From: Naegleria gruberi
Lineage: Eukaryota
Direction: 5' to 3' (one strand)
DNA: 1,165 bases
Assembly (NCBI GenBank): GCA_000004985.1
Contig: GG739520.1
Shown here: positions 1 to 1,165 of the stretch, in pieces
How the letters are laid out: every line of letters starts with the position of its first letter
Position numbering within the stretch: the first letter of the stretch is position 1
Notes under the pieces: generated by a model
The model's database searches: none
Told to the model about the DNA's origin: nothing
Seen by the model: only the letters and a program-made list of their open reading frames with translations
Program-made: the position numbers and the translations under genes

Positions 1-32
1 CGCTGAAGTTGAATGTTCTGACCGTTATATTC

Positions 33-60
33 AACAAAAAAAAACAACAAACAACAATTA
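33..60 (+). repeat. Simple-sequence tract: A9 homopolymer (36-44) embedded in (CAA)n-like repeats
   Basis: Sequence is aacaaaaaaaaacaacaaacaacaatta. Poly(dA:dT) tracts are known nucleosome-excluding elements in yeast intergenic DNA. Confidence 0.5.
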
Positions 61-311
61 CTCATGATTTCATCACCACCCTGCTAACTACCAACCTTCA
101 TCAGTACCACCAGGAGGAGAGTTCTCCCTTTGCTTCCTTCCACATCAGCCATAGCACATTCAACCATAACAGAAAGTACTTGTTGCTAGCAGAACAAGTG
201 ATAATTGATACTTTGAACACTGTCTCACTCTTGGCTAATAAACCTTCGGCTCTACTTTTGCCAATTTTTGTTTTTTGCTCTGCTCTACTTTCTGACCCAC
301 TCTGGACCACG

Positions 312-367
312 TAATTATGGACATCCTTTTTTCACGACCCACCCACCCCCACATAATTATGACAATC
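312..367 (+). repeat. Imperfect direct repeat TAATTATG(G)ACA (312-323 and 354-364) flanking a C-rich core CCCACCCACCCCCAC (338-352)
   Basis: Aligned by eye: TAATTATG is identical in both copies and -ACA follows after a 1-nt indel. The copies are about 42 bp apart. Confidence 0.4.
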
Positions 368-562
368 TTCCCATCATCTTCTTTGGACAACAAGAAATGA
401 ACTCGACAACTGTATTGAAGGTTGTTTTGATAAGAGATATCACAATGATATGGTTTATATTTGGGACTATTTCCAAGCCAACCTAAATGTGTAACATTAT
501 CGATTAGTAAAATTTAATTTTTTTCATTTTTAAGATGTCTTTATTCTATTAAGGTAATATTT

Positions 563-568
563 TCAACA
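563..568 (+). promoter_or_regulatory. TCAACA motif at -15 to -10 of the tRNA, matching the CAACAA-like start-site element reported upstream of yeast tRNA genes. An AT-rich TATTAAGGTAATATTTT element at about -32 to -15 is a possible TFIIIB/TBP-contacting region.
   Basis: Judged from sequence position relative to tRNA +1, compared with my recollection of conserved upstream elements of S. cerevisiae tRNA genes. Confidence 0.3.
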
Positions 569-584
569 TGAAAGAGATCCCGTG

Positions 585-595
585 TAGTCCAATGG
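585..595 (+). promoter_or_regulatory. Pol III internal promoter A box (TAGTCCAATGG, consensus TRGCNNAGTGG)
   Basis: Sits at tRNA positions 8-19 and matches the A-box consensus at 9 of 11 positions. Confidence 0.6.
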
Positions 596-627
596 CTAGG
601 ATACCTGGCTTTCACCCAGGAGGTCCG

Positions 628-638
628 GGTTCAATTCC
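628..638 (+). promoter_or_regulatory. Pol III internal promoter B box (GGTTCAATTCC, consensus GGTTCRANTCC)
   Basis: Sits at tRNA positions 52-62 and matches the B-box consensus. Confidence 0.7.
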
Positions 639-654
639 CGGCATGGGAGGACCA

Positions 655-675: not shown

Positions 676-823
676 GGTCAATCAAAATCTCAATGCATAA
701 CGCTCCCAAATTACTATTGTTAGTTCACGCAACGCCATTGTCTTGTTATGGAAATATACTCGGGTTAACTGATAAATTTAGGTTCAAGCTTGTGGCATAT
801 GAAATTATCTTTTACTAGAAAAA

Positions 824-1165
824 ATGTTAAAACAAGTTAAACGTATTTACAAAGCCACAACCCCTCAACACCAACAAGTTAAAAGATGTTTCACCACTTC
901 TCTGATCAATCATGAGCTCAACAACAAAAAAATAACGATTTCCATTCCAAATCTTTCAGATTCTTCTCCTCTTCAACAAGAAGAATTTCGTCTTGCCAAA
1001 CTTCACATTTCTGAAATGGATGTCATTAAAAAAGAACAGCTCAATGCTTCATTCAAATCAAGCAGCAAACAGGCCACAGTAGTAGATTGGAAGAGTCAAC
1101 ACAATGGAATTGTTGTTCGTCTATTGCACAAGGAAGGACAAGTTGTAAAGAGTGGTCAACCTTTT
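824..1165 (+). CDS. 5' portion (114 codons, runs off the window end) of a protein-coding gene. The N-terminus looks like a mitochondrial matrix-targeting presequence; product unidentified.
   Basis: ATG 824 is the first in-frame ATG after the in-frame stop TGA at 800-802 and the frame stays open to the window edge. The start context agaaaaaATGt is A-rich (A at -3). Codon choice is yeast-like (AGA, CAA, GTT, AAG, GGT, CCA, TTG). Translation: MLKQVKRIYKATTPQHQQVKRCFTTSLINHELNNKKITISIPNLSDSSPLQQEEFRLAKLHISEMDVIKKEQLNASFKSSSKQATVVDWKSQHNGIVVRLLHKEGQVVKSGQPF. The first 30 residues contain 6 K/R, no D/E and many S/T. It is missing from the supplied track only because there is no in-window stop. Confidence 0.55.
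   Translation, partial: MLKQVKRIYKATTPQHQQVKRCFTTSLINHELNNKKITISIPNLSDSSPLQQEEFRLAKLHISEMDVIKKEQLNASFKSSSKQATVVDWKSQHNGIVVRLLHKEGQVVKSGQPF

What the first reader, a model, noticed from the sequence alone, without database searches (positions are those of the whole stretch)
824..1165. Unlisted ORF at the window edge with a mitochondrial presequence and an R-10 (MPP + Oct1) processing motif
This ORF is absent from the supplied track because it has no in-window stop, yet it is the only convincing CDS in the window. Residues 1-30 (MLKQVKRIYKATTPQHQQVKRCFTTSLINH) are basic (K3, K6, R7, K10, K20, R21), hydroxyl-rich and contain no acidic residue; the first acidic residue is E31. R21-C22-F23-T24-T25-S26 fits the R-10 motif R-X-(F/L/I)-X-X-(S/T/G)-X-X-X-X. 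That predicts MPP cleavage after C22 and then Oct1/MIP removal of the octapeptide FTTSLINH, leaving a mature N-terminus near E31. I do not recognise the mature part (ELNNKKITISIPNLSDSSPLQQEEFRLAKLHISEMDVIKKEQLNASFKSSSKQATVVDWKSQHNGIVVRLLHKEGQVVKSGQPF). It may be a poorly characterised or lineage-specific mitochondrial protein.
Basis: partly seen in the sequence, partly recalled or inferred. Interest (0 to 1): 0.55.

Follow-up and report, generated by a model that had tools for sequence, protein, structure and literature searches.

The report
Naegleria mitochondrial lipoyl-like membrane protein gene
The open reading frame is a real, already catalogued but uncharacterised gene of the amoeba Naegleria gruberi; it encodes a 165-residue protein with a probable mitochondrial targeting peptide, a divergent lipoyl-type domain and a C-terminal membrane helix, which is mildly unusual but not a major surprise.

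Summary
Window 824-1165(+) is an ATG-initiated frame open to the window edge. An in-frame TGA lies 8 codons upstream. Residues 1-30 have 6 K/R and no D/E, and R21-C22-F23-T24-T25-S26 fits the R-10 motif.

The source is a Naegleria gruberi-group amoeba, not a fungus. The ORF is 96.5% identical (4 of 114 residues differ) to N. gruberi predicted protein NAEGRDRAFT_73477 (XP_002671412.1, 165 aa). It is 98% identical to a metagenome copy, and a 76%-identical relative shares the same C-terminus and TAA stop.

The mature part is recognisable:
- Residues ~38-120 are a divergent E2-type lipoyl domain (hhalign 97%, E 5e-11).
- An acidic linker follows, then a conserved C-terminal hydrophobic helix (146-165) that lies beyond the window.

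Mitochondrial targeting is well supported indirectly. MS-validated N. gruberi mitochondrial proteins have closely similar N-termini, and the N-terminus evolves faster than the domain.

Oct1 processing is only one option. The same residues fit MPP plus Icp55 (R-3), and the motif turns up in 5-7% of shuffles.

The lipoyl hairpin is non-canonical: it is 3 residues longer and K82 sits off the consensus position. Lipoylation is therefore uncertain.

Verdict: a lineage-restricted, membrane-anchored variant of a known domain family. Interest is modest.

The parts
824..1165 (+). Codons 1-114 of a 165-codon single-exon gene, a variant of N. gruberi NAEGRDRAFT_73477. The remaining 51 codons lie beyond the window.
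   Evidence: The full length is read from L001 57-554.
800..802 (+). In-frame TGA stop 8 codons upstream of the ATG. It fixes M1 as the first possible start.
   Evidence: Read. One search shows the frame open only from 803.
824..889 (+). Residues 1-22: predicted mitochondrial presequence up to the predicted MPP site (after C22, with R21 at -2).
   Evidence: Net charge +6 with no acidic residue. Amphipathic moment 0.76 for residues 1-11. pLDDT below 50 for residues 1-33. All 4 differences from the N. gruberi reference fall in residues 1-35, against 0 in 36-114 (Fisher p = 0.008). Similar N-termini occur in MS-validated N. gruberi mitochondrial proteins.
890..913 (+). Residues 23-30 (FTTSLINH): candidate Oct1 octapeptide. 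Alternatively only F23 is removed by Icp55.
   Evidence: The motif fits. Chance is 5-7%. [quoted passage not shown] The cleavage itself is untested.
935..1165 (+). Residues 38-114: divergent E2-type lipoyl (barrel-sandwich hybrid) domain. It continues to about residue 120 beyond the window.
   Evidence: hhalign 97.1%, E 5.2e-11. phmmer against 1.84 billion representatives gives 9 weak hits beyond the family, E 1e-4 to 7e-4; those whose sequences were read (8 of 9) are mostly E2 lipoyl domains, the rest lipoyl-like repeats. BLASTP pairs give E 3e-7 to 5e-7. Pfam Biotin_lipoyl E 0.0036, below the gathering score. The AF2 model has pLDDT 70-89 over the domain and matches lipoyl domains 3crk_C and 1iyu.
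1067..1069 (+). K82: the only Lys in the beta-hairpin loop (S80-T85) where the lipoyl-lysine normally sits.
   Evidence: Searches align the consensus lipoyl-Lys column with S81 and put K82 at +1; (BLASTP against P0004) puts K82 at -1 instead. The loop is 3 residues longer than canonical, and the K-to-G95 spacing is 13 rather than 11. In the AF2 model the strands are 73-79 and 86-90.

Best explanation
This is the 5' two-thirds of a nuclear, intron-less gene of a Naegleria gruberi-group amoeba. It encodes a 165-residue precursor.

Most likely mechanism:
1. Residues 1 to about 22-30 act as a cleavable matrix-targeting presequence. MPP would cut after C22 (R21 at -2). The new N-terminal F23 would then be trimmed, either alone by Icp55 or as the octapeptide F23-H30 by the Oct1/MIP homologue.
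2. Residues ~38-120 fold as a divergent E2-type lipoyl domain in the matrix.
3. The basic stretch K132-K145 and the conserved C-terminal helix (146-165) tether the protein to the inner membrane, N-terminus inside.

The tethered domain would act as a docking or pseudo-substrate module for proteins that recognise lipoyl domains, such as E3, the lipoyl-attachment enzymes and the 2-oxoacid dehydrogenase components. Its hairpin is non-canonical, so I lean slightly towards it not being a standard lipoylation substrate. I put lipoylation of K82 at about 0.3-0.4.

Shown: a real gene, its organism, its start, the domain homology, and the conserved C-terminal hydrophobic helix.

Inferred: mitochondrial import (about 0.7), the MPP site, inner-membrane topology (about 0.45), Oct1 involvement (about 0.25-0.3), and the function.
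For: - Gene and organism.
- Coding constraint and shared stop with a 76%-identical relative.
- Start codon.
- Presequence features.
- N-terminal 35 residues evolve faster than the domain (p = 0.008).
- N-terminus disordered in the AF2 model.
- MS-validated N. gruberi mitochondrial proteins have near-identical N-terminal styles: GDH MLRNTTKLIKGLSNQKRLFSTTV..., E3 ...AQNRFYSAEKK, HslU ...QQRLFSTLNN, and a helicase MRRCFSQSLINN against the window's KRCFTTSLINH.
- Lipoyl-domain homology.
- Fold.
- C-terminal helix: hydropathy 2.1-2.4, pLDDT 85-91 even in the single-sequence model, conserved with E155 and R161 invariant.
- A N. lovaniensis protein has the same layout, lipoyl-like domains plus a C-terminal TM helix.
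Against: - No localisation predictor could be run, and there is no experimental localisation. XP_002671412.1 was not found in the stored part of the published N. gruberi mitochondrial proteome table, but that file is truncated, so this is inconclusive.
- A TM helix at the extreme C-terminus is also the hallmark of tail-anchored outer-membrane or ER proteins.
- The Pfam Biotin_lipoyl score (17.5 bits) is below the gathering threshold (22.1).
- The confident AF2 model used an alignment I seeded with lipoyl domains, so the fold match is partly circular. The single-sequence model was uninformative.
- The hairpin lacks the D-K-A context and has 3 extra residues. In the 76% relative the Lys appears shifted (K81/H82), though that stretch is of doubtful reading.
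- There is no detectable similarity to N. gruberi's own OGDH E2 lipoyl domain.
- No orthologue was detected in the annotated N. fowleri or N. lovaniensis proteomes.
Confidence: 0.6

Rival explanations
1. Tail-anchored protein of the mitochondrial outer membrane, ER or peroxisome. The C-terminal helix would be inserted post-translationally, the lipoyl-like domain would face the cytosol, and the basic N-terminus would be an uncleaved disordered extension.
For: There is a single hydrophobic helix at the very C-terminus with no residues after it, preceded by K/R residues (K132, R135, K139, K145) and with R161 near its end. It has moderate hydrophobicity with an internal Glu, as in many mitochondrial outer-membrane tail anchors (my knowledge). 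No localisation data exist.
Against: The N-terminus matches the style of MS-validated N. gruberi matrix proteins, including the R-x-F-T/S cleavage context. E2-type lipoyl domains in eukaryotes are organellar (established knowledge). The N-terminal 35 residues evolve faster than the rest, as cleaved presequences do.
Confidence: 0.17
2. Same import route, but maturation is MPP followed by Icp55 (the classical R-3 pattern R-x-F|T). This would give a mature N-terminus at T24 rather than Oct1 removal of FTTSLINH to give E31.
For: R21-C22-F23-T24 fits R-x-(F/Y/L)-(S/A/T). The R-x-F/Y-S/T pattern recurs in N. gruberi mitochondrial proteins. In yeast, Icp55 substrates outnumber Oct1 substrates (my knowledge of Voegtle et al. 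2009). The R-10 pattern alone arises in 5-7% of shuffles.
Against: F at -8 and S at -5 also fit Oct1. N. gruberi mitochondria contain MIP homologues. E31 would leave only about 6 residues before the first strand of the domain, a typical spacing.
Confidence: 0.4
3. The domain is a bona fide lipoylated carrier. K82 would be octanoylated or lipoylated by the LipB/LplA-type machinery, making a membrane-tethered swinging arm that E3 re-oxidises and that serves some membrane-proximal acceptor.
For: K82 is the single Lys at the tip region of the beta4-beta5 hairpin. The first strand carries the E2-type signature IPNLSDS, close to MPNLGDN. An LplA-like ligase, E3 and H-protein are in N. gruberi mitochondria. 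The second domain of the N. lovaniensis relative keeps a canonical Lys with K-to-G spacing of 11.
Against: The hairpin is 3 residues longer than canonical. There is no D at -1 and no A at +1. The K-to-G spacing is 13. The Lys position is apparently not conserved in the 76% relative. Moving the lipoyl-Lys by one position abolishes lipoylation in model domains (my recollection of Wallis & Perham 1994, not checked here).
Confidence: 0.33
4. Spurious ORF or decaying pseudogene with a chance presequence-like start.
For: It is a short protein. It has no named homologues, falls below the Pfam threshold, and lacks detectable orthologues in N. fowleri and N. lovaniensis annotations.
Against: It is intact at 165 codons in three close variants, and the 3' third that the 76% relative covers is intact too. 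That comparison shows excess synonymous change, in-frame indels and the same stop. Profile homology to lipoyl domains is significant.
Confidence: 0.03

Closest known systems
N-terminal lipoyl domains of mitochondrial 2-oxoacid dehydrogenase E2 / E3-binding proteins (Pfam PF00364)
   Same: A presequence is followed within a few residues by a beta-sandwich domain of about 80 residues. The first strand carries (M/L)P-x-L-(G/S)-(D/E), a hairpin carries a Lys, the G-x-(V/I)-x-x-(L/I)...EG-x-x-V second half is present, and an acidic linker follows.
   Different: There is no peripheral-subunit-binding domain and no catalytic core. A C-terminal membrane helix takes their place. The hairpin is 3 residues longer without D-K-A, and the first loop has a 4-residue insertion. 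The Pfam score is below threshold.
Naegleria lovaniensis hypothetical protein C9374_013865 (P0005, 352 aa)
   Same: It has a basic N-terminus, lipoyl-like domain(s), an acidic/Ser-rich linker and a hydrophobic helix at the extreme C-terminus. It is 28% identical over the domain, pairwise E 6e-8.
   Different: It has two domains (the first with Q in place of the lipoyl-Lys, the second canonical) and a longer linker. There is no shared synteny, since no tRNA-Glu lies nearby. It is probably a paralogous or merely analogous relative.
Plant BADC / BLP proteins (biotin-attachment-domain-containing, non-biotinylated regulators of acetyl-CoA carboxylase)
   Same: Conceptually, a stand-alone organellar barrel-sandwich carrier-type domain with a degenerate modification site, thought to act by competing or docking (my knowledge; not tested here).
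   Different: They belong to the BCCP lineage rather than the E2 lipoyl lineage. They are plastid stromal and have no membrane anchor. No sequence relationship was shown here.
Bacillus subtilis BLAP (YngHB), a stand-alone biotin/lipoyl attachment protein (PDB 1z6h)
   Same: A small single-domain carrier protein of the same fold. It gave a weak sequence hit (E 0.06, residues 56-119) and a fold hit.
   Different: It is bacterial and soluble, has a canonical modifiable Lys, and has no presequence or TM helix.
Yeast and mammalian Oct1/MIP substrates with the R-10 motif (e.g. Prx1, Prx V)
   Same: R at -10, F at -8 and S at -5 relative to the proposed mature N-terminus.
   Different: Processing has not been demonstrated. 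The same residues fit the R-3/Icp55 pattern.

Membership tests
Mitochondrial matrix-targeting presequence proteins | An N-terminal 15-50 residues that are rich in K/R and hydroxylated residues, devoid of D/E, and able to form an amphipathic helix. | tested here: met
   There are 6 K/R and 0 D/E in residues 1-30, a pattern seen in 0.9% of shuffles. The hydrophobic moment is 0.76 for residues 1-11.
Mitochondrial matrix-targeting presequence proteins | Demonstrated import or localisation, or a positive TargetP/MitoFates score. | not testable with these tools
   No predictor is available. The published N. gruberi mitochondrial proteome table is truncated in the held copy, and the accession is not found in the held part.
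Oct1/MIP substrates (R-10 motif) | R at -10, F/L/I at -8 and S/T/G at -5 relative to the mature N-terminus. | tested here: met
   R21, F23 and S26 fit, with E31 as the mature N-terminus (definition in PMC7996597). The pattern is low in information, occurring in 5-7% of shuffles.
Oct1/MIP substrates (R-10 motif) | The organism has a mitochondrial Oct1/MIP peptidase. | tested here: met
   The N. gruberi mitochondrial proteome lists two MIP-like proteins, one with E 1e-116 to Phytophthora MIP.
Oct1/MIP substrates (R-10 motif) | Observed two-step processing: an intermediate starting at F23 and a mature form at E31. | not testable with these tools
   This needs N-terminomics. The R-3/Icp55 route fits equally well.
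Lipoyl domain (Pfam PF00364 Biotin_lipoyl, E2 type) | A sequence match above the Pfam gathering score. | tested here: not met
   17.5 bits against a cut-off of 22.1; E 0.0036.
Lipoyl domain (Pfam PF00364 Biotin_lipoyl, E2 type) | Full-domain homology by profile comparison, and a library-wide hit list dominated by lipoyl domains. | tested here: met
   hhalign 97.1%, E 5.2e-11, residues 38-128 aligned to columns 5-88. The weak phmmer hits are mostly lipoyl domains of E2 proteins, the rest lipoyl-like repeats. NCBIfam sucB matches residues 38-126 to profile positions 2-83.
Lipoyl domain (Pfam PF00364 Biotin_lipoyl, E2 type) | A flattened 8-stranded beta-barrel (barrel-sandwich hybrid) fold. | tested here: inconclusive
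   The AF2 model (pLDDT 70-89 over residues 36-119) matches 3crk_C, 1iyu and 5gua at TM 0.80-0.89. However, its alignment was seeded with lipoyl domains, and the single-sequence model failed.
Lipoyl domain (Pfam PF00364 Biotin_lipoyl, E2 type) | The lipoyl-Lys sits at the tip of a tight beta-turn, usually (E/T)-x-D-K-A, with a Gly 11 residues downstream. | tested here: not met
   The loop is S80-S-K82-Q-A-T85, 3 residues longer than canonical. K82 aligns one position off the consensus Lys, and G95 is at +13.
Lipoyl domain (Pfam PF00364 Biotin_lipoyl, E2 type) | Covalent lipoylation. | not testable with these tools
   This needs MS or an anti-lipoate blot.
Biotinyl domain (BCCP type) | An (A/V)-M-K-(M/L) biotinylation motif in the hairpin. 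| tested here: not met
   The hairpin reads S-S-S-K-Q-A. Matches to P. horikoshii BCCP cover only the second half of the domain, residues 91-117.
HlyD / RND membrane-fusion adaptor proteins | A barrel-sandwich domain interrupted by an alpha-helical hairpin, plus beta-barrel and membrane-proximal domains. | tested here: not met
   The weak hits (HlyD_D23 E 1e-4, RND_mfp E 5e-5) cover only the shared lipoyl-like half-motif. The protein has 165 residues with no helical hairpin inside the domain.
Tail-anchored membrane proteins | A single TM helix within about 30 residues of the C-terminus. | tested here: met
   Residues 146-165 are hydrophobic and form a helix at 142-164 with pLDDT 85-91. The segment is conserved in the relative. 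It lies beyond the window.
Tail-anchored membrane proteins | No N-terminal targeting signal. | tested here: not met
   A presequence-like N-terminus is present.

The most novel reading that the evidence does not exclude
Naegleria mitochondria contain a small family of inner-membrane-tethered, stand-alone lipoyl domains: this protein and the two-domain N. lovaniensis C9374_013865. If they are genuinely lipoylated, they would act as membrane-proximal dithiol carriers recycled by E3. One possible role is as reductant for the lipoyl-dependent Ohr/OsmC peroxidase that N. gruberi encodes (PMC5384416), which acts on fatty-acid hydroperoxides. Another is as an extra station in the lipoyl relay. Either would add a sixth class of lipoylated protein in a eukaryote beyond the E2s, E3BP and H-protein.
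Probability: 0.1. Interest if true: 0.6.

Novelty: new variant of a known kind. Interest (0 to 1): 0.3.

Why it matters
Eukaryotes are thought to have a very short, fixed list of lipoyl-domain proteins: the E2s, E3BP and H-protein. A stand-alone, membrane-anchored, presequence-bearing lipoyl-like domain in Naegleria would be a small addition to that list. It could be a degenerate docking or decoy module, or a new lipoyl carrier. It also gives a functional annotation to an N. gruberi 'predicted protein'. The mitochondrial-presequence observation itself is ordinary, since hundreds of Naegleria proteins carry similar N-termini.

Tried and rejected
- **Intron read-through at the C-terminus.** A GTGAGT...TTTTAAG pattern in L001 suggested it. 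I rejected this because the 76% relative conserves the hydrophobic tail in frame with the same TAA stop and lacks the GTGAGT.
- **Ciliate or CTG-clade genetic codes.** Rejected. TAA terminates both homologues at the same position, and CTG interchanges with TTA/TTG at conserved Leu positions.
- **Yeast or fungal origin.** Rejected by the cluster look-up, which gives N. gruberi.
- **JGI metagenome scans.** Two scans, one with the protein and one with the conserved C-terminal alignment, found nothing.
- **Word-indexed search with the N. lovaniensis relative.** It found only itself.
- **Synteny between the window and the N. lovaniensis locus.** No tRNA is present there.
- **Single-sequence AF2 as an independent fold test.** pLDDT 47.8, uninformative.
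- **afdb50 fold search.** The library was unavailable.
- **Direct BLASTP against N. gruberi's OGDH E2 lipoyl domain.** No alignment.
- **Literature look-ups.** Searches for the accession, the ENA project and run identifiers, and membrane-anchored lipoyl domains found nothing.
- **Other ORFs in the window and in L003.** No Pfam hits.

Full report
**1. The observation**

The window (1165 nt, about 30-42% GC) contains an ATG at 824. It opens a frame that runs without a stop to the last base, giving 114 codons.

An in-frame TGA sits at 800-802, and the context is AAAAATG (one search shows the frame open only from 803). The next in-frame Met is M65, inside the folded domain, so M1 is the only sensible start.

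Residues 1-30 carry K3, K6, R7, K10, K20 and R21 and no Asp or Glu. E31 is the first acidic residue. R21-C22-F23-T24-T25-S26 fits R-X-(F/L/I)-X-X-(S/T/G), the R-10 motif as defined in PMC7996597.

**2. Is it more than chance?**

In shuffles of the full protein, a 29-residue N-terminus with no acidic and at least 6 basic residues arises in 0.9% of trials. The R-10 pattern alone arises in 5-7% of shuffles. The charge pattern is therefore meaningful, but the specific motif is weak evidence. Residues 1-11 have a helical hydrophobic moment of 0.76.

**3. Is it a gene, and whose?**

A word-indexed search of 5.8 billion proteins found one hit. P0001 is a 165-aa protein on a 567-bp ENA metagenome contig, 98% identical. 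Its 90% cluster also holds P0012, which is Naegleria gruberi predicted protein NAEGRDRAFT_73477 (XP_002671412.1 / EFC38668.1 / D2VWR6), also 165 aa.

The window differs from that reference at T13N, C22F, I28V and K35N. It therefore comes from another strain or a very close species of the N. gruberi group.

An exhaustive phmmer scan of 1.84 billion cluster representatives added one more relative. P0002/L003 is 76% identical over residues 102-165.
- Across 62 aligned codons there are 35 identical, 12 synonymous and 15 non-synonymous positions.
- All indels are in frame, and both genes stop at the same TAA.
- CTG swaps with TTA/TTG at conserved Leu positions, so the code is standard.

A suspected GTGAGT intron near the 3' end is not conserved, and I dropped it. 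The gene is real, single-exon in this species, and already annotated, but without any function.

**4. What the mature part is**

- **Library scan.** Beyond the family itself, the exhaustive scan gave 9 hits at E 1e-4 to 7e-4. Those whose sequences were read (8 of 9) are mostly lipoyl domains of 2-oxoacid dehydrogenase E2 proteins, the rest lipoyl-like repeats.
- **Pairwise BLASTP.** Alignments span residues 39-121. IPNLSDS aligns to LPDIGEG or MPNLGDN, and ...SSSKQATVVDWKSQHNGIVVRLLHKEGQVVKSGQPF aligns to ...SSDKATIEIPSDFEGIIKELSVKEGDAVTEGQTL.
- **Pfam and NCBIfam.** These give sub-threshold Biotin_lipoyl, Biotin_lipoyl_2, HlyD_D23 and sucB N-terminal matches.
- **Solved structures by sequence.** BCCP, BLAP and a lipoyl domain appear.
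- **Profile-profile comparison.** The four family sequences against ten lipoyl domains give 97.1% probability, E 5.2e-11, with residues 38-128 aligned to columns 5-88.
- **Structure prediction.** An AF2 model built on an alignment with those lipoyl domains gives pLDDT 70-89 over residues 36-119, and Foldseek returns lipoyl and biotinyl domains at TM 0.8-0.89.

The structure result is partly circular because of the seeded alignment. The single-sequence control was uninformative at pLDDT 47.8. I therefore rest the domain assignment on the sequence and profile evidence.

**5. The part beyond the window**

The homologues show an acidic linker (E116-D128) and then a basic amphipathic stretch (K132, R135, K139, K145). 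A hydrophobic helix Y146-F165 ends the protein.

This helix is predicted confidently even without an alignment. It is conserved in the 76% relative, including an internal Glu (E155) and Arg (R161).

A Naegleria lovaniensis protein, C9374_013865 (352 aa), has the same layout with two lipoyl-like domains. It shows no synteny with the window.

**6. Mitochondrial targeting**

No predictor was available, so I compared the N-terminus with experimentally defined N. gruberi mitochondrial proteins from Supplementary Data 2 of Horvathova et al. 2021 (PMC8134430). Their N-termini are strikingly similar in style:
- glutamate dehydrogenase: MLRNTTKLIKGLSNQKRLFSTTVANRSAVEDDE
- E3: MLKSTRVILNNKKTSAMVLGTAQNRFYSAEKK
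- HslU: ...SSQQRLFSTLNNQ
- a UvrD-like helicase: MRRCFSQSLINNATRRKQ, against the window's MLKQVKRIYKATTPQHQQVKRCFTTSLINHELNN

Three further points support a cleaved presequence:
- All four substitutions between the window and the reference fall in residues 1-35, and none in 36-114 (Fisher p = 0.008).
- Residues 1-33 are low-confidence in the model.
- The domain's first strand begins at about I37, as in E2 precursors.

E2-type lipoyl domains in eukaryotes are organellar (established knowledge). The accession itself was not found in the stored table, but the file is truncated, so that is inconclusive. I put mitochondrial import at about 0.7.

**7. Processing**

However, R21-C22|F23-T24 is also the classical R-3 pattern, in which MPP cuts and Icp55 then removes the destabilising Phe. 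R-x-F/Y-S/T is the recurrent pattern in the Naegleria proteins listed above.

The MPP site after C22 is the shared prediction. The second step, Oct1 giving E31 or Icp55 giving T24, cannot be decided here. I give Oct1 about 0.25-0.3.

**8. Lipoylation**

The hairpin that should carry the lipoyl-Lys reads F77-K-S-S-S-K82-Q-A-T-V86.
- MAFFT and hhalign both place the consensus Lys column on S81, with K82 at +1 and a 3-residue insertion after it.
- BLASTP places K82 at -1.
- The D-K-A context is absent, and the downstream invariant Gly (G95) is at +13 instead of +11.
- The AF2 model shows a 6-residue loop (80-85) rather than a tight turn.
- In the translated 76% relative the equivalent residues are K-T-K-H-Y, with the Lys shifted. 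That stretch is preceded by an in-frame TAA and may be intron or assembly-end sequence.

N. gruberi mitochondria do have an LplA-like ligase, H-protein and E3. I therefore treat lipoylation as possible (about 0.3-0.4) but not the default.

**9. Most likely mechanism**

The protein is probably a nuclear-encoded precursor that is imported through its presequence and cleaved by MPP after C22, then trimmed. It would be tethered to the inner membrane by the C-terminal helix with the lipoyl-like domain in the matrix. There the domain would serve as a docking or pseudo-substrate module for proteins that recognise lipoyl domains.

The main rivals are an outer-membrane or ER tail-anchored topology (about 0.17) and a genuinely lipoylated membrane-tethered carrier (about 0.33, compatible with the same import route).

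**10. Comparison and novelty**

The protein works like, and descends from, E2/E3BP lipoyl domains. It fails two membership features: the Pfam threshold and the canonical Lys hairpin. It also lacks everything else an E2 has.

The combination of presequence, a single lipoyl-like domain and a C-terminal TM helix has no described counterpart that I could find. It is so far seen only in Naegleria. It is best classed as a new variant of a known kind.

Interest is modest at 0.3.

Noticed in passing
window 578-649 (+), T-run 655-659: A nuclear-type tRNA-Glu(UUC) gene (ARAGORN; Rfam tRNA 67 bits) is followed by a TTTTT Pol III terminator. It lies only 175 bp upstream of the ORF's ATG, on the same strand.
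   Followed up: partly
window 1-570: This is a C-rich stretch (GC skew -0.2 to -0.4) with no convincing CDS. A low-complexity frame (3-311, +) is open at the left edge and ends at 312-314, and an AATAAA lies at 237-242. It could be the 3' end or UTR of an upstream gene. Its ORFs have no Pfam hits.
   Followed up: partly
L003 1-72 and 1262-1293: In the 76%-identical relative, the reading frame upstream of the conserved part hits an in-frame TAA at 7-9, and a possible 3' splice site (ctgacag) lies at about 50-56. That species may have an intron inside the lipoyl-like domain, or the contig end may be unreliable. The contig ends in a (GTT)n microsatellite and has 30% GC.
   Followed up: partly
window 884-913 (residues 21-30): RCFTTSLINH is nearly the same string as residues 3-12 (RCFSQSLINN) of N. 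gruberi XP_002672029.1, an MS-detected mitochondrial UvrD-like helicase. This hints at a recurrent Naegleria presequence-cleavage-region motif, R-C-F-(S/T)-x-S-L-I-N.
   Followed up: no
L001 492-551 (residues 146-165, beyond the window): The C-terminal hydrophobic helix keeps an internal Glu (E155) and Arg (R161), plus C154, invariant between relatives that differ at 7 other helix positions. Conserved charges inside a putative TM helix suggest a specific intramembrane partner or oligomerisation.
   Followed up: no
L002 10001-11059 (N. lovaniensis C9374_013865): This relative has two lipoyl-like domains. The first has Gln in place of the lipoyl-Lys (ETDQV). The second keeps a canonical Lys (TSKAV, with Gly at +11). 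A C-terminal TM helix follows. No orthologue was detected, even in other Naegleria annotations.
   Followed up: partly
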